Of a DNA stretch of 64,000 bases, positions 1 to 15,507 are shown piece after piece; the first letter of the stretch is position 1; each line of letters starts with the position of its first letter. A model generated the notes under the pieces. It did not search any database. It had not been told where the DNA came from and saw only the letters and a program-made list of their open reading frames with translations. A program made the translations under genes and the position numbers. The stretch comes from Chloroflexota bacterium (GTDB lineage Bacteria; Chloroflexota; Limnocylindria; Limnocylindrales; CSP1-4): NCBI GenBank assembly GCA_003141245.1, contig PLLE01000034.1:877-64876 (forward strand), written 5' to 3'.

Positions 1-1
1 C

Positions 2-235
2 CTTGAGGTCGAGCCTGACAAGCTTCTGAAGTACACACACTGGAGCCCGATGGGCGGCAGTCCGGACGAGCCTGAGAACTACCACGCTGTCACGTGCGAA
101 CTGGCGGAAAAGGACGGCAAGACCATCCTGACCCTTACCCAGGACAACAACGCCACCCAGGCAGAGGCGGACACGATGGCCAAGGATAACTGGGGACCGA
201 TGCTGGAGGGTCTCAAGAAGACGGCCGAGAGGTAG
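2..235 (+). CDS. SRPBCC/AHSA1-like domain protein, C-terminal part (5' end outside window)
   Basis: Frame is open from the window edge to the stop at 233-235. The tail ..KYTHWSPMGGSPDEPENYHAVTCEL..KTILTLTQDN..DNWGPMLEGLKK resembles the C-terminal half of Activator-of-Hsp90-ATPase-homolog/SRPBCC proteins. Confidence 0.55.
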   Translation, partial: LEVEPDKLLKYTHWSPMGGSPDEPENYHAVTCELAEKDGKTILTLTQDNNATQAEADTMAKDNWGPMLEGLKKTAER

Positions 236-560
236 TCGCGCCCGTCGTGAAGCAACGCAAATAGAACAGGTGTCATGGCGCGCCCGACAGGAATGGAGCC
301 TCCGACAGAACCTGCCGGATCGCCATCAGAACTGCGAGGCGGATCGCCACGATGACCTGAGTGTCACGCTGACCCCGGTCCGGCGGCTTGGCTCTCACTA
401 TGACTGCCCACGCAGGTGTGGCTGTTATCAGTTCTGCCGGCCGCCGGACATAGCGGACCGGCCGACGTGACTTGACAGGAGCGTGGTGTCAACGCCCCAA
501 CTCAGGTGTGTCCGCCGACCGGCCCTAGTCCACCCCCCAGCGAAGAGGGAGACCAGGGAT

Positions 561-1608
561 ATGGTCGTCATTGGAGTCGATTCGCACAAGCGGACGCACA
601 CCCGTCGTCGCCGTCGATGAAGCCAGCCGCAAGCTAGCCGAGCGAACGGCTGCTGCGACTGCAGACGGGCATTTGGAGCTGCTGAGCTGGAGCCGCACTT
701 GGCCCGATCGCACGTGGGCCCTCGAGGACTGTCGGAACCTCACCCGGCGCTTGGAGGCAGACTTGCTCAGGGCTGGCGAGGCAGTCCGGCGCGTGCCGAC
801 CAAGCTCATGGCCGGAGCACGACGGTCAGCCCGAGAGCCCGGAAAGAGCGATCCCATCGACGCTCTTTCGGTCGCCAGAGCTGCCCTGCGCGAACCGAAC
901 TTGCCGACAGCGCGGCTCGATGGCGTCGAGCGCGAACTGCGTCTGCTCGTGGATTATCGAGACGTTCTGATCTCCGATCGAACGGGCCACCAGTCACGCT
1001 TGCGCTGGTTCCTCGTGGAACTCGGCATCCCTGAGCCCCCAGCACGCAAGCTCACGATGCAAGTCGTGCTCGCCGGGGTCGATCTCCAACTCGTCGGCCG
1101 GACCGAGCCGTGCGCTCGTGTCGCGAGAGATCTCGTGGCCCGGATCTCCGAGATGACTCGGGCGATCGATGACCTGGCACGGCAGATCGGCGAACTCACA
1201 GAGACACTCGCTCCATCATTGCTGGACCTGTTCGGATGTGGTTCGCTGACCGCCGCCAAGATCGTCGCCGAGACGGCCGGCATCGGCCGCTTCCGCTCTC
1301 GTGCCGCGTTCGCAGCCCACAACGGGACGGCTCCGATACCAGTCTGGTCGGGCAACCTTGTCCGCCATCGGCTGAGCCGCGGCGGCAACCGTCAGCTCAA
1401 TGCCGCCCTTCACCGTATCGCTATTACCCAACTCCGTTGTCCGAGTCTCGGGCAGGCTTACGTGGCCAAACGCCTGGCCGCCGGCGATACCAAGACCGAG
1501 GCCATTCGTGCTCTTCGTCGACGCCTCAGCGACGAGGTGTTCCGCCGACTCCAGGCCGATGAGGCCGCTCGAGCCGCCACTGAATGCGTTGCGCGCGCGG
1601 CTGCTTGA
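561..1608 (+). pseudogene. IS110-family transposase with a 1-nt frameshift near the N-terminus
   Basis: The ORF at 571..1608 carries IS110/Transposase_20 hallmarks (DPIDALSVARAAL, GCGSLTAAKIVAETAGIGRF, HNGTAPIPVWSGN..RHRLSRGGNRQLNAALHRIAITQ). The canonical IS110 start MVVIGVDSHKRTHT is encoded from ATG 561 in a different frame and hits a stop after 19 codons. Removing one C from the CCC run at 601-603 joins it to ..VVAVDEASRKL. Confidence 0.75.
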
Positions 1609-1717
1609 CACAGGAGCAATTGATAGGGCGCGCTGTTGGCGACACGCGAAGCCACGCTGCGCCCCGGGGGCTGCTTCCCGGGTCCGGCCCGACCCTCACG
1701 GACGGAACTTGCGGCAC

Positions 1718-2392
1718 TCAGAGTGGCGGCGCCTGATCGACCAAAGGCTGGAAGTCCGTGCTGGTTGGTGTTCGACCGGTCACGGCGGTCAGCGTGAGTG
1801 CACCGACGAGCAGAACTGCCTCGACCAGGCCGCCGCCCATCGTCAGCACACCGCTGTCAAACCCGCTCGCGAAGGTCTGGCCGCCGGCCACGAGGACGGC
1901 CTGACCGCCGCACGGGATCACGGTGTACGTCGGATCGGCGGGAGATCCCGTCGCCTGCCAGCAGCGTTCCCCCGTCATGACGAGGAGAGCGACGGCCGCG
2001 CTCACGACGAGCAGCACGGCTGCTGCGGCGATGACCGCTTCTGACCGGTGTCGCGTGGGCAGGGCCTGAGTTCGCGATCCGAGCAAGATCAGCAGGGCGC
2101 CAGGAACCGCGAACTCGATCGTGGCGACCGACAAGATCGCGCCGACGAGGCAGAGCACGCCCGCCGCAACGACGATCGCTGGCCGGCGCTGCAACGCCCC
2201 GATGATCGCGAGGAGTCCCATCGTTGCGTAGAGAGCAGGGACCGCGAGCGCACGCGGCACGTCCTCGGGCGGGCGGGGGTCGCGAGCCTGGTATTGGATG
2301 AAGACGCCAAGCACGACGGCCAGCCCGAATACCACGACGCCCACCATCAGGACGAGCCTCCGAGCCTGGTTTCGTCCGCCGGTCGTGCTCAT
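1718..2392 (-). CDS. hypothetical polytopic membrane protein
   Basis: ORF 1718..2437, probable start at the internal Met (MSTTGGRNQARRLVLMVGVVVFG..). Several long hydrophobic segments; no recognisable catalytic motif. Confidence 0.5.
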   Translation of the reverse strand: MSTTGGRNQARRLVLMVGVVVFGLAVVLGVFIQYQARDPRPPEDVPRALAVPALYATMGLLAIIGALQRRPAIVVAAGVLCLVGAILSVATIEFAVPGALLILLGSRTQALPTRHRSEAVIAAAAVLLVVSAAVALLVMTGERCWQATGSPADPTYTVIPCGGQAVLVAGGQTFASGFDSGVLTMGGGLVEAVLLVGALTLTAVTGRTPTSTDFQPLVDQAPPL

Positions 2393-2474
2393 GTGCCGAG
2401 TGTAGCGGCACTGCTTCGGAGGGTCCGTGGAAACCATGGAACGATCGTCACTACCGCTGGATAGTGACCCGCTG

Positions 2475-2795
2475 CTAGCGCGGGAGCAGGTAGAGCGCCA
2501 TCTGCATGGGAGTCCGTGCCACCAGGCTGTGCTTCACGTCAGGCGCCATACGCAGCCACGTCCCCGGTCGAGCGGGATAGGTGTCACCGCCGACTGTAAG
2601 CTCGCCTTCGCCTTCGAGGATGTGGATGATCGCCGGTCGCGCCGACGTGTGCTCCGAAAGCTGCTCGCCGGCGGCGAAGGCGAAGAGCAGGAACTCAACG
2701 TCGCCCTCGTTGGAGAGCGTCTGGCTCAGGATGCCTCGGGCTGGGATGGGCGCCTCTGTGGCCAGATCGGCGAAGAGGGTGTAGGGCGCGGTCAT
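2475..2795 (-). CDS. cupin domain protein
   Basis: 106 aa with a cupin-like core: ..FAAGEQLSEHTSARPAIIHILEGEGELTVGGDTYPARPGTWLRMAPDVKHSL. Confidence 0.7.
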   Translation of the reverse strand: MTAPYTLFADLATEAPIPARGILSQTLSNEGDVEFLLFAFAAGEQLSEHTSARPAIIHILEGEGELTVGGDTYPARPGTWLRMAPDVKHSLVARTPMQMALYLLPR

Positions 2796-3053
2796 GTCTC
2801 AACCAGGTGCGGATTACCGGAGCGAGACTACCTGCGACGCGCAACTTCCGCCCGTCGTTCCCAGTCCGAAGCCCCCAAAGCAGAGGGAAGGGAGTTCCGT
2901 TCCGCGGATCGTCGCCCTCGGAGACGTATCTGCACGGTCCGAAAGGCAGATACTCGACTCAGGCGGGATGGCCGGCCGGACTTGAGCCGAGGCCGGGACT
3001 GCTGGCGCTAGGGTCCCGTGCGACGCCGCGGGACCGCAATCAGGAGAGATCCG

Positions 3054-3245
3054 ATGTGCCTCAACTGCGGCTGCATGGCCGCCCACGACGACATGGGTAA
3101 GCCGAACGTGAACATCACTTACGAAGACGTGAAACGGGCCGCGGATGCCAACCGCATGACCGTCGAGGCGACCCTGGCCATGATCGCCAGGACGGCCGAC
3201 AAGGATCGCCACGACCATCCGACGGAGTACGCGGCGAAGAAGTAG
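3054..3245 (+). CDS. small Cys-rich hypothetical protein (MCLNCGC.. N-terminus)
   Basis: ATG 3054 is preceded by AGGAGAG at 3042-3048. The 63-aa product MCLNCGCMAAHDDMGKPNVNITYEDVKRAADANRMTVEATLAMIARTADKD.. has coding-like GC3. Confidence 0.45.
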   Translation: MCLNCGCMAAHDDMGKPNVNITYEDVKRAADANRMTVEATLAMIARTADKDRHDHPTEYAAKK

Positions 3246-3378
3246 ACCTGCCGCTCCGCCTTGTGTCCTCGTGCTCCCACATTCGACACGAGCTGCTCGT
3301 CGTGCCGACGCTGGATCGGGAAAGCTGGGGCCAGTCGACATCACACCTACTGCGCAGCTGACACAAACCATGCCCGGA

Positions 3379-3406
3379 TTGACACCTCAGCCAGCCCGAG
3401 TACGCT
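3379..3406 (+). promoter_or_regulatory. candidate sigma70-type promoter of the Lamassu-like operon
   Basis: TTGACA (3379-3384), a 16-nt spacer, then TACGCT (3401-3406), about 60 nt upstream of the ORF start at 3466. Found by pattern only. Confidence 0.3.
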
Positions 3407-3465
3407 AACCTCGCCTACCGCAGAAGGGGAACGCCCGATCGGCATGGGGAGCTAGGGAGCGCGCG

Positions 3466-4656
3466 TTGGAGGCTACTCGACATGGTGCCGCAGGCTCGGC
3501 CACCGGGTACCTCTACCAGTGCGAGCGTGCCCTCCTGGAGTTGCTGACCCAGGCATCCATCAACCCCGACCTCACCCTCTTCATGGAGAAGCTGGACGAC
3601 ATCCATCTAGAAGAGTCGGGGCGCCCGGTTGACATCCTTCAGGTCAAGCACCACACCGGCCCTGGCGGCAGCTTGACTGATGAAAGTCGCGACCTCTGGC
3701 GGACTCTAGACGTTTGGATGGATCTTCTGCCGACGCTGGACTCCGACGAGGACCCGGAGTTCGCCCTGTTGACGACGTCCCAAGCACCAGACGATTCCGC
3801 CGCGTCATATCTGCGCGAGAGCGATGGTCGCAATCCGGATGAGGCTCTGCAGCGGCTTCTGAAAGTCGCACAGAACTCGACGGTGGAGGGCACGGCCAAA
3901 GTACGTGAGCGGTTCGTCCGTGTTGACCCAGAAGTCAGGATGCGACTGATCGAGGCGATCGTCGTGCGTGATGCGGAACCCCGGATACACGAGCTCGATG
4001 CCCGGCTCGAGTCGGAACTCAGGACCGGAGTCCGCCGGGAGCACATGGCTGGCTTCATCGAGAGTCTCAAGGGCTGGTGGTATGCACGATCGGTCGCCCT
4101 CCTGACGAAGTCCGAGCCGGCGATAGCCTTGGGCGATCTTCTGAACAAAGTGCACGACCTCAGAGACAGCTATCACCCCGAGAACCTTCCGTTCGATTGG
4201 GACCTCGGTGAGCCGTCAGAGACTGAGCAAGTCTCATATGCCACTAGTCTATTCATTAGACAACTGCGATGGATCGCTGCGTCCGACGAACTGCTGCGGA
4301 TCGCTATCGACGACTACCATCGCTCGTTCACGAACAGGTCCAGATGGCTCAGGCTCGGCTTGCTGCGCCCAGGAGAACTGGACGGCTATGAACGAAGACT
4401 CGTGGCCGAATGGAAGAGGCAACACGCTTTCATGCGGGTCGACCTCGGGTCAAACGCTACGGAAATCGAGAATCAACAAGCAGGCCGCGACCTGTGGCGC
4501 CAGGTTTCCGATTCATCCATGATCCGGATTCGCGTGCGCTTTCAGGAGCAGACCCTCAACCGCGGCACTTATCATGATCTGGCAGAAAGACAGTTGGTCG
4601 GCTGGCATCCTCTCTTCGAGGAGAGGATTCGCTCGCTGCTTGAGGGAGCGGCTTGA
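3466..4656 (+). CDS. lmuA: Lamassu LmuA-like / ABC-3C effector: N-terminal Cap4 (DUF4297)-type PD-(D/E)xK nuclease plus uncharacterised C-terminal domain
   Basis: TTG start with AGGGAG 10 nt upstream. The N-terminus GSATGYLYQCERALLELL .. FMEKLDDIHLEE .. VDILQVKHH matches the GxxYQ / E..DD / QxK layout of Cap4-type dsDNA nucleases. It is the first gene of a coupled three-gene operon. Confidence 0.8.
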   Translation: MEATRHGAAGSATGYLYQCERALLELLTQASINPDLTLFMEKLDDIHLEESGRPVDILQVKHHTGPGGSLTDESRDLWRTLDVWMDLLPTLDSDEDPEFALLTTSQAPDDSAASYLRESDGRNPDEALQRLLKVAQNSTVEGTAKVRERFVRVDPEVRMRLIEAIVVRDAEPRIHELDARLESELRTGVRREHMAGFIESLKGWWYARSVALLTKSEPAIALGDLLNKVHDLRDSYHPENLPFDWDLGEPSETEQVSYATSLFIRQLRWIAASDELLRIAIDDYHRSFTNRSRWLRLGLLRPGELDGYERRLVAEWKRQHAFMRVDLGSNATEIENQQAGRDLWRQVSDSSMIRIRVRFQEQTLNRGTYHDLAERQLVGWHPLFEERIRSLLEGAA

Positions 4657-5141
4657 CCTCCATGATGCCCGACAGTTCGACTCCCGAGGAAGCAGCTCTG
4701 TTCAATCCGGCGTTTATGGGCCTGCTGGTCGCGGCCTCGGCCAGAGACTATGAGAAGACGGCCCAGAGGGAGATGCCGTTCGTTCTCGCCTTCCTGGTCC
4801 CACCGATCGCACTCGACTCGGAGACGCGAACACGGCTGCCTGGGGCCGTGAGCGCTCTTCTCTCGACTTGGGTCTTGGCCAATCCGCTTATCCAGAGCGG
4901 TTTCGCAGATCGTGCGAAGGCTATGGCGCCGCTGGTGAGGGAAGGGCTGCGCTACGCGATCCGGTCGGACGCTGTCCGACTCACGGGCGAAGGCATCCAT
5001 TGCGTGATCCGGAGGACTAAGTTCCAGCAAGGTACTGAAGACACGCGAGATTGTCTAAAGGCGGCCGCCTTTGCGGCTCGATGGTTTGCTAGAACCGGGG
5101 ATACGGCCACGATCTTTGCTCTTCTGGGGGTCAGACCGTAG
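4653..5141 (+). CDS. lmuC: Lamassu LmuC-like / ABC-3C middle component (small protein, no enzymatic motif)
   Basis: Its start overlaps the upstream stop (TTGA at 4653-4656; alternative ATGs at 4662 and 4665), and its stop at 5139-5141 abuts ATG 5142 of the ATPase. The call rests on size (162 aa) and position between nuclease and ABC ATPase; no motif was recognised. Confidence 0.55.
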   Translation: MTSMMPDSSTPEEAALFNPAFMGLLVAASARDYEKTAQREMPFVLAFLVPPIALDSETRTRLPGAVSALLSTWVLANPLIQSGFADRAKAMAPLVREGLRYAIRSDAVRLTGEGIHCVIRRTKFQQGTEDTRDCLKAAAFAARWFARTGDTATIFALLGVRP

Positions 5142-7127
5142 ATGCAAATCATCGCTTTGGCTATCTACAAGGGCAAGGACCGCCGCGTGCTTCGGTTCCA
5201 TCCGGGCCAGATGAATGTCGTTACCGGGTGGCCGGGGACTGGCAAATCCTCACTCTTGGAGATAGTCGAGTACTGCCTCGGCCGAACGGAACCGACCTTC
5301 GCCCGAGGGGCGCTTGATGTGGTCGAGTGGTATGGGCTTCTGTTGGAACACGCAGGGACCAACCTGTTCGTAGCCCGACCGGCCCCGGCAGATGGAGCCT
5401 CGTCAAATTCGTCGGTGATGCTTCTGCGTGCCGCAACCGATGTAGTCGACGCCAACGACCTGTCCACAAACACCGATACGACGGGCTTGCGAGAGACACT
5501 CGGTCAATTGGTTGGGGTCGAGGGGGACGTGGCGCTATCCACGGATTCGCCCAGAGAGACGCAGCGCCCGAGCATTGGGCAGGCGCTTCTTCTCTGCTTC
5601 CAGAGACAGAGCGAGATCGCCAAGCCAGATCAGCTTTTCCATCGGACAAATGAGGACCAGATCCCGCGGACGATCCGTGAGTCGCTTCCGTACTTCTTGG
5701 GAGCCGTCGGGAGTGATCACGTCTCACGAAGGTTTCGGCTTCTGGACGCCCGCCGCGAACTGAGGCGCCTCCAAAGCGAGCTGGATCAGATCGGTCAGGT
5801 CCAGATGGAAGCCGATGTCCGGGCTGCTGGCCTCGTAGCTGAAGCCAAGTCTGTAGGACTGCTTGGTGACGGAAACCTTCAGACTGCGAGCGACGCATCC
5901 GCTCTGAAGGCTATGCTCGAGAGACCGGATCCTGAGGTGGAAGACCCCAACGCCGTCCTGAGGGAGAGGCTTCGACTCCGAACTGAGCGGCGCAATGCCA
6001 CCGAAGAGCTACGTCAGGTCCAAGAACAGCGGGCGGCATTGGTTCATCTGCGCGAGGAGGGCAGTGCCTTTCGTGCCGAGGTGGGAGAACAACGCTCTCG
6101 CCTCCGTAGCCTTGAACTGATGGCGACCGTGACAGACGGTGCACGTTGCCCCTTGTGCACTCGTCCACTCCCTTCCGCCGATCCAACGACAGAAGACCTC
6201 AGCCTACAAATCGCTTCGCTGGATGCCAGGCTCGCCAACGAGCGGAGCCTGCAGCCGTATCGCCTCAAGCTGGCTGTTGAGTTGCGCGAACGAGCTCGGC
6301 ATCTCCGTCACAAGCTCAATCGATTAAGGAAGTCTGAAGAGGCAATCCTGGGCGACGAGAGTCAACTAGCGAGCTACACGGATTTGGCAGAACAGAGGGC
6401 GTTCGTACGAGGACGCGCGTCGCAATTCGTGGAAGCTCTCCTGATCGCCGAGCCTGGCCGGGCGATCTTGCTCGAACGGCGCAAGGCCAAGCTCGAAGCC
6501 GACACTGACCTGCTGGAGAAGTTGCTTGACCCAGCCGCGGTGGCGCGTGAAGTCGAGTCGAAGCTCTCGTACGTGGATACTTACATGACTGGATGGGCGC
6601 GAGAGCTGGGATTGGAGCACAGCAGCGAGGGCATCAGACTGAACATCCAGGACCTGACGCTCTTCGCAAATGACCGCCGAGGCCCCATCCCGCTCATACA
6701 GATCGGCAGTGCGGCCAACCAAGTTGGATATCACGTCGTCGCGCATCTTGCGCTGCACCGCTGGTTCATCGAGGAGCGCCGTCCCGTTCCCGACTTCTTA
6801 TTCCTGGATCAACCAGAGCAGGCGTACTACCCAGAGGACGTGCCCAAGGGAACACGCGACCTCAACGGCGTCTTCTCAGAGAAGGACCAACAGAAGGTGC
6901 TCGCGCTCTACGAGTTGATTCGAAATGTCACGGCAGATCAGGGTGGAGCGTTCCAGACCATTGTCGTCGGCCATTGGAATCCAGCCAATGTGGCTTGGTT
7001 CCCAGAAGTCTGTGTGGCCAACTGGCGCGGAGACGCACTCGTTCCTGCCGAATGGCTTCACAGTGATGGCGGTCAGCCTTCGCCGGATAGCGCTTCGGCC
7101 CAGGGTGAGCCCGACAAAGCATTTTGA
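5142..7127 (+). CDS. lmuB: Lamassu LmuB-like / ABC-3C ATPase (DUF3732-type, Rad50/SMC-like with coiled-coil insert)
   Basis: Walker A GWPGTGKSS (aa 29-37). Long Arg/Glu/Leu-rich helical insert at aa ~195-470 with CPLC at aa 336-339. C-terminal FLFLDQPEQAYYPED (Walker B/D-loop) and TIVVGHWN (H-loop). Confidence 0.85.
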   Translation: MQIIALAIYKGKDRRVLRFHPGQMNVVTGWPGTGKSSLLEIVEYCLGRTEPTFARGALDVVEWYGLLLEHAGTNLFVARPAPADGASSNSSVMLLRAATDVVDANDLSTNTDTTGLRETLGQLVGVEGDVALSTDSPRETQRPSIGQALLLCFQRQSEIAKPDQLFHRTNEDQIPRTIRESLPYFLGAVGSDHVSRRFRLLDARRELRRLQSELDQIGQVQMEADVRAAGLVAEAKSVGLLGDGNLQTASDASALKAMLERPDPEVEDPNAVLRERLRLRTERRNATEELRQVQEQRAALVHLREEGSAFRAEVGEQRSRLRSLELMATVTDGARCPLCTRPLPSADPTTEDLSLQIASLDARLANERSLQPYRLKLAVELRERARHLRHKLNRLRKSEEAILGDESQLASYTDLAEQRAFVRGRASQFVEALLIAEPGRAILLERRKAKLEADTDLLEKLLDPAAVAREVESKLSYVDTYMTGWARELGLEHSSEGIRLNIQDLTLFANDRRGPIPLIQIGSAANQVGYHVVAHLALHRWFIEERRPVPDFLFLDQPEQAYYPEDVPKGTRDLNGVFSEKDQQKVLALYELIRNVTADQGGAFQTIVVGHWNPANVAWFPEVCVANWRGDALVPAEWLHSDGGQPSPDSASAQGEPDKAF

Positions 7128-7185
7128 CCGCAGGACGATATCGGACTTCTGCACGATGCGTGCGTCGTGAGTCCAGTCTTCTTAC

Positions 7186-8349
7186 CTAGGTAGGCTGATC
7201 CGCCGAAGCCATCGAGACCAACGAGTCGTCGGCCTCAACGAACTTGCGATCGAGCTGCTGCCGCAGCTCCTCGACGGACGCCGCGACGAGCCAGGCCTGA
7301 ATCCTCTCGGCATCGTTTGACTGATTGACGCTGAGTTCAACAACGACTTGGGTCAGCGAACTGAGCAATATCCCCGTAAGAGCCCCGACGTGTCCATCGC
7401 CATGGTCCGCGAGAGCGAGCCTCAGGCTCAAAGAGTCGTTCCCTGAGATCGAAGGAGCTGAAGCCAGCCGACCATGGACGAAGGCGCTTGAGACTCTTGT
7501 CTTTGCCCGCCACCGCTCCATACCGACGGCCTGTTCGAGGTGGGCGAGCGTGACGTGCACCCCCCTACCCCGGCGCGGTTTGGGAGCCGCTTCGCTCCTC
7601 GGCCCCGCTGGACTTGAACCACGTGCTGGCACGAAGGGCGCTGCCCACCCGTACTCGCTGACGAACTCATCGCCATAGGTGGCTTGCGCAGCAGCAAGGT
7701 CCCGCGCTATTTCCGCCGCCTGTTCGTCGGTCAGCTGATCCATGCCCCACGATGGTCCATACTCCTTGAGCGTGTCGGCCATCCTGCTTCTCATTACTGA
7801 CCTGTGCGCGGCAAACCGTGCTGCAGCCTCGTCGCCGAAGCGTGAGATGAACTCGCAGTACAGCGCCAGCTCATAGATCGACCGCCAGCGCGCCTGGGCC
7901 CCTCCGTAGAAGCCTCCCCTTAGGAGGTACACGACCTCAGTGCTGATCCGGCATGCCTCGCCTAGAAGTTCGCCGGCTATCTCCCGGCCGAGCGTTCTCG
8001 GTTGGATCGTAGACGGGAAATCGACCAGAGCCCAGCAGAGCCAGACGAACTCCTCCAACCTACCAATCGCATCGCGTAAGGGGTCAACGCGGCCGCGTTG
8101 GAACGATCGCTCCTCCCTCCTGATTGCCGCATACAGCGGCCTCCCTGCCACAGCAAGGCGATTCGCCGCAGCGCGCCGAGCTGCGGCAGCCTCTGGGCTC
8201 CTCGTCTCAATGTCCAAAGCTCCAAGCTGGGCCTCACCAGAACCTCTTGCCAGCTCGGCATATTGGGTTGCCCCGGCCGAAACAGCAGCGGCAACGACCT
8301 TCAGTCGCTCGCGTCTGACTGTTCCCCCGAGTCGCTTGATCTCATCCAA
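7186..8349 (-). CDS. hypothetical protein, possibly DUF5677-like
   Basis: 387-aa ORF convergent with the Lamassu-like operon. The central helical region (..EVVYLLRGGFYGGAQARWRSIYELALYCEFISRFG..) resembles DUF5677 proteins as I remember them; no catalytic motif. Confidence 0.5.
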   Translation of the reverse strand: MDEIKRLGGTVRRERLKVVAAAVSAGATQYAELARGSGEAQLGALDIETRSPEAAAARRAAANRLAVAGRPLYAAIRREERSFQRGRVDPLRDAIGRLEEFVWLCWALVDFPSTIQPRTLGREIAGELLGEACRISTEVVYLLRGGFYGGAQARWRSIYELALYCEFISRFGDEAAARFAAHRSVMRSRMADTLKEYGPSWGMDQLTDEQAAEIARDLAAAQATYGDEFVSEYGWAAPFVPARGSSPAGPRSEAAPKPRRGRGVHVTLAHLEQAVGMERWRAKTRVSSAFVHGRLASAPSISGNDSLSLRLALADHGDGHVGALTGILLSSLTQVVVELSVNQSNDAERIQAWLVAASVEELRQQLDRKFVEADDSLVSMASADQPT

Positions 8350-8575
8350 TAATGCCGCTCCCTTTGCCTATCCCAGGGCTCGCAATCGGCGGGCATCCAA
8401 GGTTACGCCGCCCGCTGTTGTGCCGAAAGACACACGATCCGCGCATCGTGAATGTCGTCCTGGGCGGTGACGTGCCGCGTTTACCCTCTCAATTCGCCTC
8501 GGTACGGGGGCCTACCATTGCCTCACATACGGGTCAGACAGTTCCCGAACCACAAAGATCGAAAGGGGTCGCCCC

Positions 8576-8815
8576 ATGGACGAATCCAAGACATCGGCAC
8601 CCGAGAAGGATCAGCCGCACCCATTCGTGTCCGGCCCCGAGGTTCCCCTCGATCCGAGAGCCGGGGCCACGCAAGAGGCAGCGGGTATGGAGGGGACAGA
8701 TCTTCCTCAAGCGAGCGGAGCCAACTGCGCGCTCTGCGGCGCTCCTCGAGGTGCCCAGATTCACATCGAGGGCAAGGTCGAGGCCGACGCCGAGTCGCCC
8801 AAGTGGGGCCTGTAG
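8576..8815 (+). CDS. possible small hypothetical protein
   Basis: 79-aa ORF with GAAAGGGG 8 nt upstream and moderately coding-like GC3. No homolog recognised. Confidence 0.2.
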   Translation: MDESKTSAPEKDQPHPFVSGPEVPLDPRAGATQEAAGMEGTDLPQASGANCALCGAPRGAQIHIEGKVEADAESPKWGL

Positions 8816-8923
8816 CCCACGGCGGTAGTCGGCACCATTTAGGTTCCCCGTCCATCGCGATCCCCAACGATGTGGTCATAGGGTTGCTTCCCATCCGAGG
8901 CCCGCGAGCCTCTTCGTAGACGA

Positions 8924-10180
8924 TCAGCCGCACGACAGGAGGCCGTAAGCCTCCTTCGCCCGGAGAACGTACAGGACTGCCGTGTCGACCTTCGCCGCGA
9001 ACGCGGGGTCCGAGCTGGCGCGCTCCAAGACCGCTGCGGCCATCTGGCTCGCCGGAGCAACGCCTCGAACGATCATGAGATCCCCGCCCGCGGCGATGAA
9101 CGCCGTGGCGCGATCGCCCGGCGCCATCGAGGTCACAGAGGCGGCCGATCCAAGATCGTCCGACATCACTACGCCCTCGAAGCCGAGTCGCTGCCGCAGC
9201 AGACCCTCGATGATCGTCGGTGAGAAGACCGCCTGGTGATCCGGATCGATCGCGGAGTACGTCGCCAGCGAGACCATCACGAACGGCGCGCTGGCTCCTA
9301 TGCCGGTCCAGAAGGCCTCGAGATACGGGTCGTTGGCCGTGGTAGTGGAGTCGACGACGCCGGCGACCGTATCGGTGTTGCCCACGACTCGTCCCAAACC
9401 CGGGAAGTGCTTGAGCGTGGTCGGGATGCCGGCCTGCGCCATGCCCCGTATGACCGCGGCGCCGTGGCTGCCCACCGTCGTCGGGTCGTGCCCGTACTCG
9501 CGCTGAAGCGCCCCGATCGGCTCATTGATCGCGTCCGCCCCGGGTGGCACAACGTCCATCACAGGAGCGAAGTCGAGGTTGATCCCGGCCATCGAGAGCT
9601 CGCGGCCCCACTGCGTGGCGTCCGCTTGCAGAACCGTCGTCGACAGCCGCCCTTGATCCAGCGCCGATGGGATGGTCGTGACTCCCGGGCCAGTCATGAG
9701 CTGGATCTGGCCCCCTTCTTGATCGGCACCCACGAAGAACCCGATCCCGTGAGTGGTCGAATCCGTCGCCAGCGCCTGGATTTGGGCGGTCAGGGGTCGC
9801 ACGCCCTCGATCCCGCCGGTTCGCCGATTGACCAGCCATGTGGACCCGAGGTGATGGCTCTCGATGGCAGCTGTCTCGCCAGGTGCCAGGAGATCGCCTT
9901 CGATGCCGAGCAGGAACAGCTGGCCCACGCGCTGCGGCTCAGTCATCTCGGCCAGCGTGCGCGCCGCGCACGTCGCCGATCCTTGCGGCGTCCCAGCAGG
10001 GCTAGCGGGACTGCCCGACCATGTGGGCGTGGCCCCAGGGCCGGATGGCCGCATGATCGCCGATGAATCGCTCGAACCGGACGGTGCCGTCCCGCAGGAC
10101 ACGGCCACTAGCGCCACGATCAACCAGACCAGCAGCGGCCAGAGCCACTGGAATCGCCCTATTCCGACTAATCGAGGCAT
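8924..10180 (-). CDS. glycoside hydrolase family 3 (NagZ-like beta-N-acetylhexosaminidase) lipoprotein
   Basis: GH3 N-terminal domain motifs: GQLFLLGIEG, GADQEGGQIQ, KHFPGLGRVVGNTDT. Signal peptide with lipobox LVAVSC. Start chosen at the internal Met (MPRLVG..); the ORF extends to 10255. Confidence 0.8.
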   Translation of the reverse strand: MPRLVGIGRFQWLWPLLVWLIVALVAVSCGTAPSGSSDSSAIMRPSGPGATPTWSGSPASPAGTPQGSATCAARTLAEMTEPQRVGQLFLLGIEGDLLAPGETAAIESHHLGSTWLVNRRTGGIEGVRPLTAQIQALATDSTTHGIGFFVGADQEGGQIQLMTGPGVTTIPSALDQGRLSTTVLQADATQWGRELSMAGINLDFAPVMDVVPPGADAINEPIGALQREYGHDPTTVGSHGAAVIRGMAQAGIPTTLKHFPGLGRVVGNTDTVAGVVDSTTTANDPYLEAFWTGIGASAPFVMVSLATYSAIDPDHQAVFSPTIIEGLLRQRLGFEGVVMSDDLGSAASVTSMAPGDRATAFIAAGGDLMIVRGVAPASQMAAAVLERASSDPAFAAKVDTAVLYVLRAKEAYGLLSCG

Positions 10181-10391
10181 AGCCAAAGGGTAGGCGATCC
10201 ACTGCGAGCATCTCCACCCAGAATCGTCGCGCCGCCAGCCTCTCGGCACGATCAAGCCATGGTGTCGTCGATCCGCACCTGAAGTCCGCGGTTACGACAG
10301 CGGCCGATCTGCTGTCCCGATTCCCACATCCCGGCGAGTTAGAGGCGGCTCGTGTGCGCGCAGCCCTGGTCTTAGCCAGGGCGGGCTCGAC

Positions 10392-11525
10392 CTACTTGAG
10401 GGAGCGAAGCCAACGAAGTACGGCTTCACGGGAAGTGTGCGAGGCAGCTCGCTCCCAGTCCCTCTCGAATGCAAGCCTGAGCCGAAGGACCGTCGGCGCG
10501 TCCGTGCAGACCAGACCGCGGATGCCCTGTGTTGACAGTTCTCGTTGGGGCGTATTGATCTCGCCGAATACAGTCGCAGAATGGCTTCCCATGACCGTGT
10601 AGGTCGTCGGTATCGGCTCCTTCTGAAGGCCCACGCGCAATAGCGGGAACGTATCGATCAGAGAGATTGTCCGCTCTATTTGCGCTTCCGCCTGGTCGGC
10701 GGTCAGGCCGCCTTGCCTTGAACCAGCACTCCGGTAGTACCTCTCGTGCGAGCCTTTGTCCAGCAACCATCGGATCTCTGTTGTCGCGGCCAACTGCAGC
10801 CAGATCTGGTACCGCGCCTCAAGGTGCACCAGGATGTCCGCCAATACTTGGGGATCCCCGCGGTACAGGCGCCGCTGGCGTTCGAGCTGGTAGTCGAGAG
10901 GGCGAGTTATGAATGGCGGTACTGCCAGGGAGCTCATCAGGGGACGCGCGGTCTCGACGGTCATGATGCTCTGGAGATCCTCGGCCAGTCGGCGCTCGAA
11001 CCGGACGCGGTCCTCAAGACTTTGGGTGAACACCTCAAGGGTCGACCTGCTCGCCAGACTGTCGCTCAGGGCAGCTGCGTCTCGCGCTGATCTCTTGTCT
11101 GCGAAGGACCCCAAGATCCAGCCGGAGATGTCAGCGGAGACTCGTTCCCGAAGCTCCTCGACGTGCCTGTACTCACCCCACCTAACCTTTGCTGCCTCGA
11201 TCTGTGGTTCAATCCGAGGATCTGGTCGATCGTCGTTTCTGGGCGCTTTCCGGTACACGAAGATCGGCAGATTGAGATCACGTGCGAGCCGCAGCTCTGC
11301 GAACGCTGCCTCGCTGTAGCGGACTCCGACCAGCAAGACGTAGATATCGGCGGCCCGAAGCCCTGATTCCCAGTCTCGCTCCGCTGGATGTGGACGAGCC
11401 ACGGGAGGGTCTTCGAATTGGTACACATCGAGGCCGGTGGCTCGAAGGGCCCACGCGGCCACGTACCTGTCGTCGATCAACTCATGTTGGTCGGACGAGA
11501 TGAACACCAGAGGCGTTCTCGCCAT
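10392..11525 (-). CDS. DUF4062-like (TIR / nucleoside 2-deoxyribosyltransferase-like fold) N-terminal domain protein with uncharacterised C-terminal region
   Basis: The N-terminus PLVFISSDQHELIDDRYVAAWALRATG .. ADIYVLLVGVRYSEAAFAELRLARDLNLPIFVY fits the DUF4062 pattern (vFiSS..eR....., D.yv.l.g.rYg...E...A). The C-terminal ~250 aa are unassigned. Confidence 0.6.
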   Translation of the reverse strand: MARTPLVFISSDQHELIDDRYVAAWALRATGLDVYQFEDPPVARPHPAERDWESGLRAADIYVLLVGVRYSEAAFAELRLARDLNLPIFVYRKAPRNDDRPDPRIEPQIEAAKVRWGEYRHVEELRERVSADISGWILGSFADKRSARDAAALSDSLASRSTLEVFTQSLEDRVRFERRLAEDLQSIMTVETARPLMSSLAVPPFITRPLDYQLERQRRLYRGDPQVLADILVHLEARYQIWLQLAATTEIRWLLDKGSHERYYRSAGSRQGGLTADQAEAQIERTISLIDTFPLLRVGLQKEPIPTTYTVMGSHSATVFGEINTPQRELSTQGIRGLVCTDAPTVLRLRLAFERDWERAASHTSREAVLRWLRSLK

Positions 11526-11740
11526 CGGTTCCCCCAGTTGGCGCTACCCCGGCGACTTCGGGCGTCCCTGAATGATGACACGGGCTCGACGTCCCGGTAC
11601 TTCCAGACGCAAACCGCGATGCCCCTCGCGGACCCCGTCTTCTCGGTGGGCACGACCGGGTGATAGGAACGCCGGCACCATTCCCTGCCGCCTTGCATTC
11701 TTTAGGCCCCTGAAGCAAGGCCGTGCGCCAGACCGGTCGG

Positions 11741-12592
11741 CTACGGGGTCTGGCTATCGGTATGCGGTGGTTGAGAGACAAGCGGGGTCCCTGCGGGGAG
11801 CGGGTAGCACGTGGCAGTGCCGTCATTTGGGAGGTAGTCGGAGAGCTGGTAGTCCAGGATCTCGGCCACTCGAAGGAAGTCGAGTAGGTATCGCGCGAGG
11901 TCGAGCAGGGGCGGCAGCGGACCCTGAGACAGGGCGAAGTGGGTTGCCTTGGTGGCGTCCGCCTGCAGGAATTCGGCCCCGTCTAAATGCGAGGAATACG
12001 CTGCCGAGAATCGGCGCACATCCACATAGAGGTTCGGCCAGACACGCCGCGGATTGCTGTTGAAGAAGCTCGTGAGCGCAGAGTGAAGGATGTCGGGCGT
12101 GAGAGAGGCCTCCGTGACGATGGCCCCGAAGACTTGATGGTCGAACTGATCCGGGTTGACGTGCGGACCCTGGACGTTGCCGTGAAGGACGTAGTTCTTG
12201 CCGCGCCCGGTCCGGTCGAGCGCCTTGACGCTGCGGATGTTCTGGACCGCTTGATCGAGTACGCGTTGCGAATCGACGGCAGCCTTGATCTCCATCACGG
12301 CCGCGACGGCTTCCACCATGAAGTGGTGGACCCCGCCAATTGAGAAGACCGGGGCGTAGTCGCGTCGGTAGATGACGAGGTCAACCTGGCGGCTAATCTC
12401 GCCCGAGGAGTCGAATACGAAGCCGGTCGAGGCCTCATAGGACGATGGGAGGATGGTGGTGACGAAGTCACGAAGGATGTTCTCTCGTGCGTGTCCGTTC
12501 TCGCCGGGGTGGGCAATGGCGGCGGTCAGATCGAGCTTCTGCAACGTCTGAAGACTGAGGCTCTCCATGATCGCGGGAACGACGTTTGGCAT
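11741..12592 (-). CDS. PD-(D/E)xK-like nuclease-fold protein (DUF6602-like)
   Basis: GENGHARENILRDFVTTILP .. ISRQVDLVIYRRD .. FMVEAVAAVMEIKAAV gives a D ... E-x-K arrangement on predicted strands, typical of the restriction-endonuclease fold. Confidence 0.6.
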   Translation of the reverse strand: MPNVVPAIMESLSLQTLQKLDLTAAIAHPGENGHARENILRDFVTTILPSSYEASTGFVFDSSGEISRQVDLVIYRRDYAPVFSIGGVHHFMVEAVAAVMEIKAAVDSQRVLDQAVQNIRSVKALDRTGRGKNYVLHGNVQGPHVNPDQFDHQVFGAIVTEASLTPDILHSALTSFFNSNPRRVWPNLYVDVRRFSAAYSSHLDGAEFLQADATKATHFALSQGPLPPLLDLARYLLDFLRVAEILDYQLSDYLPNDGTATCYPLPAGTPLVSQPPHTDSQTP

Positions 12593-12762
12593 GTCGCGGG
12601 TCCTTTGCGGAGTCTGCGCCGATGGTAACGGGTGACTATGCCGCGATCGTGTCTCCCCAACCTCTCCAGATGATCACGGCGGGATGATGTGTTCACAGAG
12701 TCATCCCTCGGCATCTCGGGCAGTGGGTCGCCACGCCACTGAGCGTCATAGCGGACGGCCCA

Positions 12763-13641
12763 TCAAGATTCGCGTACACGCCCTTGGCCGTCGGCCAGCC
12801 ACACGAAACGCCAGGTCCGACCGTCGGCAGCCTGGCCACGGCCCGCGTAAGCGCCTCCCGGGAGTTCTAGCCTGTCGGGTTGTACTCGGTGCTTGGCCCA
12901 AAGAGCCACGAACCTGGCTCCGTCCGCATCAGCCGTTCTGTTGGCGAGTCTGCCCACGCCTGCCCAGGGCCCGCCATCCCACTGGACCATCTGCGCCATG
13001 ACGTCCTCTCTCTGGGCCTCGCCGACCCGTTGGGCACCCAACAGCAAGCTCAGAACCATCGCACCCAGGGCGATGCAGAAGATGAATCCGTCCGCAATGA
13101 CCAGGGACGTGGCGGCACCCGTTTTGGCCGAGTCGCCGAGATAGATGACGTAACCGGAACCCATCAGGGCGAGGGGCACAAATGCAAGGGCTGCGAGCTC
13201 GAAGAGCTGCATGGCACCGGCGAGCCAGAGCGGCTTGAACTCAACCCCGGCCGCGACGGAGAGCCTTACGCCATGACGCACATCCCAAGCCAGCACGTCG
13301 GACGCGTCGAGATAGTCAGGGTCGAGGTCCTGCAAGGCCCATCGCAGCCTGATCGCCTGTCTGTGCAGATAGAGGCCGATCTCCATCTGCTTGTTCATGT
13401 GGCCCAGGAACGTGATCACGACGAGTCCGAGCAGAGCTGCCGCTCCAAGCAGCAGCAACTCGAGCGACGTGGTGTCGGACTTGACCACGACGCCTGCCGA
13501 GAGCGCGGCGCCCGCACCACCAATCGTCACACCCAGGAACTGGTGGGTTCTCTGCTGAAGACTCATGACCTCTGCGCGCAATGCGTCGTACTCGTGAAGA
13601 GTGGCCTGCGTCACCAACTCCACTCGAAGCGATCGATTCAT
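12763..13641 (-). CDS. hypothetical membrane protein (about 4 TM) with soluble C-terminal tail
   Basis: ORF 12763..13785; probable start at MNRSLRVELV.. (13641). Four long hydrophobic segments and no recognisable domain. Confidence 0.45.
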   Translation of the reverse strand: MNRSLRVELVTQATLHEYDALRAEVMSLQQRTHQFLGVTIGGAGAALSAGVVVKSDTTSLELLLLGAAALLGLVVITFLGHMNKQMEIGLYLHRQAIRLRWALQDLDPDYLDASDVLAWDVRHGVRLSVAAGVEFKPLWLAGAMQLFELAALAFVPLALMGSGYVIYLGDSAKTGAATSLVIADGFIFCIALGAMVLSLLLGAQRVGEAQREDVMAQMVQWDGGPWAGVGRLANRTADADGARFVALWAKHRVQPDRLELPGGAYAGRGQAADGRTWRFVWLADGQGRVRES

Positions 13642-13883
13642 CCTCCCTGCCTCCAACCATGCCCCGCTCAGCAGGAGCGGCCCCACACCGCTCGCAGCAC
13701 CCGCCGAGGCCGGGACCGCCGTCCTGGCTGGCGAGGTCCGCCCCATCTTCGGCTCACCACTCCACCTGGGCAAGAGCCAAAGCAACCTGCCACGACGTCT
13801 CGCACCATTTGGTCATGATGTTGCTTTCTGGGCGCACCGGAGTGAGTCATGTGAGCGACCAACTCTCACCCGAGGACCCCACG

Positions 13884-14819: not shown

Positions 14820-14837
14820 GGGGCGAGGGAGAGCGAC

Positions 14838-15053
14838 CTACCGACCCGTGTCGCGCAGTCGTCGGCGAAGCTCGTCACCGTCCTTGTCGCCGACACTCAG
14901 CCTCGGGTCAGGGAAGTACCCGCTCGTGCCCACGCGCGAGCCGCAGATCGGACAGCGGAACTGCGGATTGCCACGCAGGTGGCCGGTCTTGCGCACGAAC
15001 CGATGTCCGGCGGGGCAGATCAGCTCCAACTCCGGATCGTCACTCGGTCCCAC
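14838..15053 (-). CDS. possible small zinc-ribbon protein
   Basis: GTG 15053 is preceded by GGGGAGGA. The 71-aa product has CPAGH..(17)..CPIC. Taken from the 3' part of ORF 14838..15293. Confidence 0.35.
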   Translation of the reverse strand: MGPSDDPELELICPAGHRFVRKTGHLRGNPQFRCPICGSRVGTSGYFPDPRLSVGDKDGDELRRRLRDTGR

Positions 15054-15225
15054 TCGTGTCCTCCCCGGTGGCCGTTGAGAAAGCTCGACGTCGATCGAGC
15101 CTGAGTCTGTAGCCGGCGGACATCCTACGAGGCCCGTCCGCTGCCACATCCTATCCTGCACCGCGCCGGCCACGGCTGACCAGGCTGGCTGTATTGGCGA
15201 CGCCAGAGGTGAGAGCCCAGAAGAG

Positions 15226-15507
15226 CTACCAACCGGCTTGCCTCCACGCGGCGAGGGTAGCCACCGCGAGCGCGGCGAGGCCCACGAACGCAAGGCCGAT
15301 CAGGAAGTCTTCCCAGGCACTCGTGCGCCTGCCCATCGGGGGGCCGACGGGCGCGGGAAGGACCGGCAGCACCAATAGCGCGAGCAGGGCCAGCGGGCCT
15401 AGAACCAAACCGGCGATGAACCAGCCGATCCTAGGACGCCCACGGCCCCCGGCCAGAAGGCCGATCGCTATCGCTAACCACAGCCAGGTGGTCGCAGCCT
15501 GCGCCAT
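15226..15507 (-). CDS. possible small membrane protein
   Basis: 93-aa ORF with three hydrophobic helices (WLWLAIAIGLLAGG, FIAGLVLGPLALLALLVLPVL, LIGLAFVGLAALAVATLAAW). Confidence 0.35.
   Translation of the reverse strand: MAQAATTWLWLAIAIGLLAGGRGRPRIGWFIAGLVLGPLALLALLVLPVLPAPVGPPMGRRTSAWEDFLIGLAFVGLAALAVATLAAWRQAGW

What the first reader, a model, noticed from the sequence alone, without database searches (positions are those of the whole stretch)
3466..7127. Three-gene Lamassu / ABC-3C-type operon: Cap4-like nuclease, small middle protein, Rad50/SMC-like ABC ATPase
Three co-directional ORFs have coupled boundaries. The ORF1 stop overlaps the ORF2 start (TTGA at 4653-4656), and the ORF2 stop at 5139-5141 abuts ATG 5142. 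ORF1 (396 aa) opens with GSATGYLYQ .. EKLDDIHL .. ILQVKHH (nt 3586-3648), the GxxYQ / acidic / QxK arrangement of Cap4 (DUF4297) PD-(D/E)xK dsDNA nucleases. ORF3 (661 aa) has Walker A GWPGTGKSS, a ~270-aa Arg/Glu/Leu-rich helical insert, and C-terminal FLFLDQPEQ plus VVGH, which is the DUF3732 / SMC-like ABC layout. ORF2 (162 aa) has no enzymatic motif. The order nuclease, small protein, SMC-like ATPase matches type II Lamassu (DdmABC of Vibrio cholerae) and the computationally defined ABC-three-component conflict systems. The class is therefore already described. This copy, however, looks divergent: I cannot assign the C-terminal ~250 aa of ORF1 or any of ORF2. It also contains visibly AT-richer stretches (e.g. 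4230-4270) than the flanks, and it heads a cluster of orphan genes ending at an integrase. I consider it the most likely anti-phage/anti-plasmid module in the window.
Basis: partly seen in the sequence, partly recalled or inferred. Interest (0 to 1): 0.8.

Follow-up and report, generated by a model that had tools for sequence, protein, structure and literature searches.

The report
Ordinary type II Lamassu defence operon

Summary
In detail: three co-directional, tightly coupled ORFs lie at 3466-7127 with the stated motifs.

- **ORF1** is LmuA. It has a Cap4-type PD-(D/E)xK nuclease N-terminal domain plus the ABC-3C CTD7 oligomerisation domain.
- **ORF2** is LmuC (MC3 family).
- **ORF3** is LmuB. 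This is a short Rad50/SbcC-like ABC ATPase with Walker A, the deviant DQ Walker B, one CxxC zinc hook and the DUF3732 head.

All three link to the cryo-EM structures of the Vibrio cholerae (DdmABC) and Salmonella Lamassu complexes: by sequence profile for all three, and by predicted fold for LmuA and LmuC. Residues aligned with experimentally mutated ones are conserved (LmuA K61, LmuB K35 and S523, C336/C339). The lmuA-lmuC-lmuB order recurs in 9 of 9 independent relatives.

The architecture matches the published 'Lamassu Cap4-CTD7-MC3' sub-family. The operon has the lowest GC in the window (0.60 against 0.67). It sits in a low-GC block between an IS110 transposase and an integrase, so it was probably acquired horizontally.

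Verdict: a new, divergent member (16-22% identity to the solved LmuA and LmuC) of a known kind. No function was tested. Interest is low.

The parts
3466..4656 (+). lmuA: effector, 396 aa (Cap4-type nuclease N-terminal domain + CTD7)
   Evidence: PADLOC LmuA PDLC03848 at 1.7e-60 over the full length. The profile of 39 homologues matches V. cholerae LmuA 9nxx_A at 1.9e-35 and Salmonella LmuA 9hqu_C at 4.4e-32. The AF2 model has pLDDT 92.2, and Foldseek matches 9hr5_C at 4.4e-17.
3466..4215 (+). LmuA N-terminal Cap4-like PD-(D/E)xK nuclease domain (about residues 1-250)
   Evidence: Aligns with the V. cholerae LmuA N-terminal domain. Foldseek also reaches Cap4 6wam at 7e-4, HerA-DUF4297 9c1m at 2.9e-4, HamA 8zue and Avs3 8dgc. 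Pfam Cap4_nuclease scores only 15.5 bits, below its cut-off.
3586..3648 (+). Catalytic motif E41..D44-D45..Q59-x-K61
   Evidence: Invariant in 39 of 39 homologues. K61 aligns with V. cholerae LmuA K57, which is the K57A mutant in 9ny1 and is essential for defence.
4252..4626 (+). LmuA CTD7 helical bundle (residues 263-387): sequestration and tetramerisation domain
   Evidence: Pfam PF20283 at 7.4e-35. The model shows six helices here. 9hr5_D aligns to this domain with TMt 0.81 and rmsd 2.4 A.
4653..5141 (+). lmuC: middle component MC3, 162 aa (alternative start ATG 4662, 159 aa)
   Evidence: Pfam PF20131 at 2.7e-37. PADLOC LmuC at 1.2e-9. The profile matches Salmonella LmuC 9hqu_D at 1.3e-8. 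The AF2 model has pLDDT 90.2, and Foldseek matches 9hqu_D with TM 0.83 and rmsd 2.1 A.
5142..7127 (+). lmuB: short SMC/Rad50-like ABC ATPase, 661 aa
   Evidence: PADLOC LmuB PDLC03859 at 1e-103. phmmer matches Salmonella LmuB 9hqu_A at 1.5e-49 and V. cholerae LmuB 9ny5_D at 2.6e-40, both end to end.
5226..5249 (+). LmuB Walker A (GWPGTGKS, residues 29-36)
   Evidence: G29, G34 and K35 are invariant in 28 homologues. In one search, GWPGTGKS aligns with the Salmonella LmuB Walker A (GASRTGKS), so K35 corresponds to the mutated K40.
5724..6512 (+). LmuB coiled-coil arm (about residues 195-457)
   Evidence: The composition is rich in Leu, Arg, Ala and Glu. The segment aligns with the Salmonella LmuB coiled coil.
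6147..6158 (+). Single CxxC zinc hook (C336-P-L-C339) at the coiled-coil apex
   Evidence: C336 and C339 are invariant. They align with the CPMC of Salmonella LmuB, where the zinc hook is required for defence. It is the only CxxC in the protein.
6513..7040 (+). LmuB C-terminal head (DUF3732/LmuB_C) with signature-like G522-S523, Walker B FLFLDQ (552-557) and H611
   Evidence: Pfam PF12532 at 2.3e-35. G522, D556, Q557 and H611 are invariant and S523 is nearly so. S523 aligns with Salmonella S536, the head-engagement mutant. The DQ Walker B is the described short-Lamassu variant.

Best explanation
This is an intact 'short' (type II) Lamassu defence operon, lmuA-lmuC-lmuB, of the Cap4-CTD7-MC3 sub-family. 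That is the sub-family of V. cholerae DdmABC and Salmonella LmuACB.

The mechanism below is taken from those characterised homologues and is inferred here, not shown. Two LmuB protomers, one LmuC and one LmuA form a resting complex. In it the CTD7 domain of LmuA is buried near the LmuB zinc-hook and coiled-coil region, which keeps the nuclease monomeric and inactive. LmuB and LmuC sense dsDNA ends or replication-associated aberrant DNA from a phage or plasmid. With slow ATP turnover by the DQ-type ATPase heads, LmuA is then released. Free LmuA tetramerises through CTD7, which pairs two Cap4-type domains into one active site. That site cuts DNA non-specifically and aborts the infection or eliminates the plasmid.

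Shown here: the domain architecture, the conservation of catalytic and nucleotide-binding residues, the fold similarity and the conserved gene order.

Inferred: complex stoichiometry, trigger, nuclease activity and phenotype.
For: - **Family calls.** PADLOC gives LmuA 1.7e-60, LmuC 1.2e-9 and LmuB 1e-103. Pfam gives CTD7 7.4e-35, MC3 2.7e-37 and DUF3732 2.3e-35.
- **Links to solved Lamassu subunits.** The LmuA profile matches 9nxx at 1.9e-35 and 9hqu_C at 4.4e-32, and by fold 9hr5_C at 4.4e-17. LmuB matches 9hqu_A at 1.5e-49 and 9ny5_D at 2.6e-40. The LmuC profile matches 9hqu_D at 1.3e-8, with fold TM 0.83.
- **Conserved functional residues.** LmuA E41, D44, D45, Q59 and K61 are invariant, and K61 aligns with the essential V. 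cholerae K57. In LmuB, K35, C336/C339, D556-Q557 and H611 are invariant and S523 is nearly so. K35, S523 and the CxxC pair align with residues mutated in Salmonella (K40, S536, zinc hook).
- **Synteny.** The order lmuA-lmuC-lmuB, on the same strand and abutting, is found in 9 of 9 independent loci at 30-71% LmuA identity and in an annotated Streptomyces plasmid.
- **Context.** The operon is the lowest-GC segment of the window and lies between an IS110 transposase and an integrase. Relatives sit beside type I R-M, GmrSD and PLD genes.
- **Mechanism.** The mechanism comes from PMC12663957, bioRxiv 10.1101/2025.03.14.643221 and bioRxiv 10.1101/2025.06.23.660979.
Against: - No function was tested.
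- Identity to the characterised proteins is low: 17-23% for LmuA and 16-21% for LmuC in the Foldseek alignments.
- Pfam's Cap4_nuclease model misses its threshold for ORF1 (15.5 against 26.2 bits). It detects only 7 of 39 family members at E <= 0.01.
- One tetramer-interface residue that is important in V. cholerae (R312) aligns with Ala314 here. The interface details therefore need not be conserved.
- No promoter or terminator was detectable with the consensus scans, so expression is unproven.
Confidence: 0.93

Rival explanations
1. It is a housekeeping Rad50/SbcCD-like DNA-repair module rather than a defence system.
For: LmuB gives weak hits to Rad50, SMC and the Rad50 zinc hook. The literature derives Lamassu from SbcCD.
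Against: - There is no Mre11/SbcD phosphoesterase partner.
- The Rad50 and SMC hits are far below their cut-offs (for example 18.6 bits against 700), whereas LmuB-specific models score 1e-103.
- The partners are CTD7 and MC3 proteins.
- The operon has atypical GC and codon usage and lies in a variable region.
Confidence: 0.02
2. It is a Lamassu-like operon that is inactive or decaying, a relic in a degrading island.
For: It is flanked by an IS110 transposase. No recognisable promoter or terminator was found.
Against: - All three ORFs are full length compared with their homologues, with no internal stops.
- Every invariant catalytic or binding residue is retained.
- Translational coupling is preserved.
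- The sigma-70 and intrinsic-terminator consensus scans are uninformative in a 67% GC genome.
Confidence: 0.04
3. It is a different SMC/ABC-ATPase defence system (Wadjet, Septu PtuAB, Gabija or PARIS) that only resembles Lamassu.
For: Weak PADLOC hits to PtuA and AbiLi appear at the Walker A region only.
Against: - Those hits have E values of 1e-3 to 6e-2 and cover about 45 residues, whereas LmuB scores 1e-103 over 638 residues.
- No JetABCD, PtuB or GajB partners are present.
- The partners are LmuA and LmuC.
Confidence: 0.01

Closest known systems
Salmonella enterica LmuACB (PDB 9HQU, 9HQX, 9HR5; bioRxiv 10.1101/2025.03.14.643221)
   Same: - The gene order is A-C-B.
- LmuA is Cap4 N-terminal domain + CTD7, and LmuC is MC3.
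- LmuB is about 660 aa with a DQ Walker B and a single CxxC zinc hook.
- It is the best PDB match for LmuB (1.5e-49), for LmuC (1.3e-8, TM 0.83) and for the LmuA fold (4.4e-17).
   Different: - Identity is only about 20-23% for LmuA and 21% for LmuC.
- The host is a high-GC uncultured bacterium rather than an enterobacterium.
- LmuB here has a 22-aa non-conserved C-terminal tail.
Vibrio cholerae DdmABC = LmuACB 'Lamassu Vc-Cap4' (PDB 9NXX, 9NY1, 9NY5, 9NYG, 9UXH-L; PMC12663957; bioRxiv 10.1101/2025.06.23.660979)
   Same: - It belongs to the same Cap4-CTD7-MC3 sub-family.
- It is the best full-length sequence match for LmuA (7.7e-15 for the single sequence, 1.9e-35 for the profile).
- The catalytic Lys is aligned (K57 with K61).
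   Different: The V. cholerae clade has lost the LmuB zinc hook, whereas this LmuB keeps an invariant CxxC. Identity is low. R312 of the V. cholerae CTD interface is not conserved.
Cap4 (CBASS effector; PDB 6WAM, 6VM6, 7YIB) and other DUF4297-type nucleases (HerA-DUF4297 9C1M, Hachiman HamA 8ZUE, Avs3 8DGC)
   Same: The N-terminal nuclease fold and the D..QxK motif arrangement are shared (Foldseek 3e-4 to 5e-3).
   Different: There is no SAVED, HerA or STAND partner domain. Activation goes through CTD7 and an SMC-like sensor rather than a cyclic oligonucleotide. The Pfam Cap4_nuclease score is below threshold.
SbcCD / Rad50-Mre11
   Same: The ABC head, coiled coil and CxxC zinc hook layout is shared. 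It is the proposed evolutionary ancestor.
   Different: The coiled coil is much shorter and the Walker B is DQ rather than DE. There is no Mre11/SbcD nuclease. The effector is tethered through CTD7 and LmuC.

Membership tests
Lamassu, short / type II (ABC-3C), Cap4-CTD7-MC3 sub-family | LmuB: an SMC/Rad50-like ABC ATPase of about 650 aa with Walker A Gx4GK[S/T], an N- and C-terminal split head (DUF3732/LmuB_C) and an intervening coiled coil | tested here: met
   PADLOC LmuB at 1e-103. Pfam DUF3732 at 2.3e-35. End-to-end alignment to the solved LmuB 9hqu_A at 1.5e-49. G29, G34 and K35 are invariant.
Lamassu, short / type II (ABC-3C), Cap4-CTD7-MC3 sub-family | Deviant Walker B hhhhD[Q/S/T/E], as described for short Lamassu | tested here: met
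   FLFLDQ at residues 552-557, with D556 and Q557 invariant. The definition is in PMC12663957.
Lamassu, short / type II (ABC-3C), Cap4-CTD7-MC3 sub-family | LmuA: an N-terminal effector fused to the ABC-3C C-terminal domain CTD7 | tested here: met
   Pfam CTD7 at 7.4e-35, well above its cut-off. PADLOC LmuA at 1.7e-60. The profile matches solved LmuA at 1.9e-35 and 4.4e-32. The fold matches at 4.4e-17.
Lamassu, short / type II (ABC-3C), Cap4-CTD7-MC3 sub-family | LmuC: the MC3 middle component | tested here: met
   Pfam MC3 at 2.7e-37. The profile matches solved LmuC at 1.3e-8. Foldseek gives TM 0.83 and rmsd 2.1 A to 9hqu_D.
Lamassu, short / type II (ABC-3C), Cap4-CTD7-MC3 sub-family | A conserved three-gene operon in the order lmuA-lmuC-lmuB | tested here: met
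   9 of 9 independent loci, plus one annotated Streptomyces plasmid, show the same order and strand with abutting genes.
Lamassu, short / type II (ABC-3C), Cap4-CTD7-MC3 sub-family | An A1:B2:C1 sequestration complex, with LmuA released and tetramerised on sensing DNA ends | not testable with these tools
   No multimer prediction or biochemistry is available. The mechanism is inferred from homologues.
Lamassu, short / type II (ABC-3C), Cap4-CTD7-MC3 sub-family | An anti-phage or anti-plasmid phenotype that depends on the nuclease Lys and on Walker A | not testable with these tools
   This needs an experiment. The residues to mutate are LmuA K61 and LmuB K35.
Cap4 / DUF4297 PD-(D/E)xK nuclease domain (Pfam PF14130) | A match to the Pfam model at its gathering threshold | tested here: not met
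   15.5 bits against a cut-off of 26.2, over residues 11-64 only. Only 7 of 39 family members reach E <= 0.01. The NCBIfam DUF4297_antiphage model scores 13.3 bits against 300.
Cap4 / DUF4297 PD-(D/E)xK nuclease domain (Pfam PF14130) | The Cap4-type nuclease fold with a conserved acidic + QxK catalytic motif | tested here: met
   The model shows an alpha-beta-beta-beta-alpha-beta core. Foldseek gives probability 1.0 to Cap4 6wam, 6vm6 and 7yib, and to DUF4297 9c1m. E41, D44, D45, Q59 and K61 are invariant. K61 aligns with the catalytic K57 of V. cholerae LmuA.
Rad50 / SbcC / SMC proper | A match to the equivalog or Pfam models at threshold, with an Mre11/SbcD or kleisin partner | tested here: not met
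   Rad50 NF003034 scores 18.6 bits against 700. SMC_N scores 17.4 against 40. Rad50_zn_hook scores 15.2 against 24.3. No phosphoesterase partner lies in the flanks.

The most novel reading that the evidence does not exclude
This lineage comes from high-GC bacteria. Its closest relatives were seen only in metagenomes (at most 71% identity), and it is about 20% identical to the studied LmuA proteins. It keeps the LmuB zinc hook, but a V. cholerae tetramer-interface residue is not conserved. It might therefore differ from DdmABC and the Salmonella system in what DNA structure triggers it, or in how it tolerates the host's own DNA ends. This is suggestive because more distant LmuB relatives (34-36% identity) sit 8-13 kb from the record start of Streptomyces plasmids, one of them confirmed linear. 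A weaker variant of this reading is that the convergent DUF5677 gene just downstream is an accessory or regulator.
Probability: 0.1. Interest if true: 0.4.

Novelty: new member of a known kind. Interest (0 to 1): 0.15.

Why it matters
Little beyond annotation. It adds a divergent Cap4-CTD7-MC3 Lamassu with a zinc hook, from an uncultured high-GC bacterium, to a family found in about 15% of prokaryotic genomes. It also marks positions 3.4-14.8 kb of the window as a probable horizontally acquired defence or mobile region. The copy could serve comparative work on which LmuA, LmuB and LmuC interface residues are truly conserved. It opens no new question.

Tried and rejected
- **Genome-collection scan with the broad LmuA alignment.** The tighter alignment confirmed only one locus, so synteny was tested through encoding-contig look-ups instead.
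- **Single-sequence PDB search for LmuC.** It found nothing. The profile was needed.
- **Promoter, terminator and 3'-hairpin searches.** They gave nothing above chance (z = -0.35).
- **Direct repeats as att sites for the island.** The 17-nt pair at 2986/13703 is at the level expected by chance (my own estimate).
- **DUF5677 as a fourth component.** It is present near the operon in only 2 of 10 loci, so this was rejected.
- **Rfam.** No RNA family was found in 1-16000.
- **Phage carriage.** One partial hit in 50,697 phage records.
- **The PADLOC 'LmuA' hit in ComEC (39924-42578).** It covers only the metallo-beta-lactamase domain and is a false lead.
- **Rad50/SMC, Septu and AbiL readings.** They were rejected on score.

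Full report
**Observation**

The window holds three co-directional ORFs exactly as reported:
- ORF1 at 3466-4656 (396 aa, TTG start, AGGGAG 7 nt upstream).
- ORF2 at 4653-5141 (162 aa). Its TTG overlaps the ORF1 TGA as TTGA at 4653-4656.
- ORF3 at 5142-7127 (661 aa). Its ATG directly follows the ORF2 TAG at 5139-5141.

The quoted motifs are all present. The GC pattern by codon position (GC2 well below GC1 and GC3) supports the + strand frames. The long minus-strand ORFs across the region are the usual high-GC artefacts.

One detail is uncertain. Public gene calls on the source contigs disagree on the ORF2 start: ATG 4662 giving 159 aa, or TTG 4653 giving 162 aa. The N-termini of 162-aa homologues favour the overlapping TTG.

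**Identity of the proteins**

Profile libraries give unambiguous answers.
- PADLOC calls LmuA (PDLC03848, 1.7e-60, full length), LmuC (1.2e-9) and LmuB (PDLC03859, 1e-103, full length).
- Pfam calls CTD7 of ABC-3C systems in ORF1 residues 263-387 (7.4e-35), MC3 across ORF2 (2.7e-37), and DUF3732 (now named LmuB_C) in ORF3 residues 458-633 (2.3e-35).

Against solved structures:
- ORF1 aligns over residues 8-388 with V. cholerae LmuA/DdmA (9NXX, 7.7e-15).
- A profile of 39 homologues raises this to 1.9e-35. It also reaches Salmonella LmuA at 4.4e-32 over the full length.
- ORF3 aligns end to end with Salmonella LmuB (9HQU_A, 1.5e-49) and V. cholerae LmuB (2.6e-40).
- ORF2 finds nothing as a single sequence. 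A 28-sequence profile finds Salmonella LmuC (1.3e-8) and V. cholerae LmuC (about 4e-5).

Predicted structures agree:
- The ORF1 model (pLDDT 92.2) is closest to the LmuA chains (4.4e-17). It then matches Cap4, the DUF4297-HerA nuclease, Hachiman HamA and Avs3.
- The ORF2 model (pLDDT 90.2) superimposes on Salmonella LmuC with TM 0.83 and rmsd 2.1 A.

**Functional residues**

In LmuA, E41, D44, D45, Q59 and K61 are invariant across 39 homologues of 30-71% identity. K61 aligns with V. cholerae K57. That residue is replaced by Ala in entry 9NY1 and is essential for DNA cleavage and phage defence.

In LmuB the following are invariant or nearly so across 28 homologues:
- G29, G34 and K35 (Walker A).
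- G522 and S523 (signature-like).
- D556 and Q557 (Walker B).
- H611.
- C336 and C339.

K35, S523 and the CxxC pair align with Salmonella K40, S536 and the zinc hook, all of which are required for defence. The DQ Walker B and the presence of zero, one or two CxxC motifs are described features of 'short' Lamassu. This LmuB has exactly one CxxC.

**Synteny and distribution**

In nine independent loci the order lmuA-lmuC-lmuB is kept, with genes abutting or overlapping on the same strand. The loci were chosen through LmuA homologues of 30-71% identity. They come from a Chloroflexota MAG, soil-type metagenomes, Halomonas and Tautonia.

RefSeq annotates the same trio on a Streptomyces plasmid as 'ABC-three component system protein', 'three component ABC system middle component' and 'DUF3732 domain-containing protein'.

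LmuB relatives occur on 94 plasmids at no more than 36% identity. The phage collection gives only one partial hit.

The LmuA family is large: 1,972 clusters at 50% identity, 501 of them at E <= 1e-30, and almost all about 400 aa. The literature reports Lamassu in 15.4% of complete prokaryotic genomes.

**Context**

The window is from a metagenome contig (ENA ERZ27254256; also Logan SRR7151606).

The operon is the lowest-GC segment of the window: 0.601 against 0.674, with only 0.8% of equal-sized windows as low. Its GC3 of 0.67-0.70 contrasts with 0.8-0.92 for core genes.

Upstream lies an IS110-family transposase. Downstream lie, in order:
- a convergent DUF5677 gene,
- a GH3 hydrolase,
- a DUF4062 protein,
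- a NucC-like DUF6602 nuclease,
- an orphan gene,
- a tyrosine integrase at 13884-14819.

Beyond about 17 kb the window is housekeeping: LeuRS, ComEC, peptidases and transporters. This fits horizontal acquisition, but no convincing att repeats were found. Relatives of the operon sit beside other defence genes, including type I R-M, GmrSD and PLD.

**Mechanism (inferred from homologues, not shown here)**

Three 2025 structural studies describe the mechanism:
1. An LmuA1:LmuB2:LmuC1 complex holds LmuA monomeric, with its CTD buried against LmuC and the LmuB coiled coils.
2. dsDNA ends or related replication structures bind LmuB and LmuC.
3. With slow ATP turnover, LmuA is released.
4. LmuA tetramerises through its CTD, forming one active site from two Cap4-type domains.
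5. That site degrades DNA non-specifically, causing abortive infection or plasmid loss.

The Salmonella paper names the sub-family 'Lamassu Cap4-CTD7-MC3', which is exactly the architecture found here.

**Limits**

- Nothing functional was tested.
- Identity to the studied LmuA and LmuC proteins is only 16-23% in the Foldseek alignments.
- Pfam's Cap4_nuclease model is below threshold for ORF1 and for most of its family. The Cap4 label rests on fold, motif and the alignment to V. cholerae LmuA.
- One V. cholerae tetramer-interface residue (R312) aligns with Ala here.
- Promoter and terminator scans were uninformative.

**Verdict**

The system is a divergent new member of a thoroughly characterised kind, so interest is low.

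Noticed in passing
window 11741-12592 (-), with 10392-11525 (-) and 12763-13641 (-): A 283-aa DUF6602 protein is NucC-like over its N-terminal 130 residues (PADLOC NucC effector 8.6e-27; PDB NucC 6q1h and 6uxf at 1e-13). None of the neighbours scanned matches a CD-NTase or Cas10. Its same-strand neighbours are a DUF4062 protein, with a weak nucleoside 2-deoxyribosyltransferase-like PHROG hit, and a 292-aa orphan with no family. This may be a separate, uncharacterised defence module.
   Followed up: partly
window 7186-8349 (-): A 387-aa DUF5677 protein is convergent with lmuB and ends 58 bp from it. A DUF5677 gene also lies about 4 kb downstream of lmuB in locus L003, but it is absent from the other eight relative loci. 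It matches phrog_27456 (6.7e-19) and has no PADLOC or PDB match.
   Followed up: partly
window 571-1608 (+) and 13884-14819 (+); block about 3400-14800: An IS110-family transposase and a tyrosine integrase bracket a lower-GC block (0.63 against 0.69 beyond 15 kb). A 17-nt direct repeat (16 of 17 matching) at 2986-3002 and 13703-13719 also brackets it, but it is no better than chance.
   Followed up: partly
window 16027-16812 (-) and the gene downstream of it on the minus strand (lower coordinates per locus L008; its exact window position was not resolved): A nucleotidyltransferase with an AadA_C domain (1.7e-27) sits next to a gene with a weak Fic_N hit. This may be a toxin-antitoxin-like or resistance-like pair at the edge of the variable region.
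   Followed up: no
plasmid hits H2-H5 (e.g. NZ_CP108214.1 8175-10136): In several Streptomyces plasmids the Lamassu operon lies only 8-13 kb from the start of the record. H2 is confirmed linear; the topology of H3-H5 was not checked. That is a curious place for a system that senses DNA ends.
   Followed up: no
window 3054-3245 (+): A 63-aa ORF with an N-terminal CLNCGC motif lies 220 bp upstream of lmuA. It is called as a gene on both source contigs and has no family match.
   Followed up: no
window 4218-4264: The lowest-GC stretch of the operon (39%) falls at the junction between the LmuA nuclease domain and CTD7 (residues 251-266). This may be a trace of modular effector/CTD recombination, or it may be chance.
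   Followed up: no
window 39924-42578 (+): ComEC (Competence + metallo-beta-lactamase domains) gives a PADLOC 'LmuA' hit (PDLC03854, 2.4e-19) through its MBL domain alone. Automated defence annotation could be misled by this false positive.
   Followed up: yes
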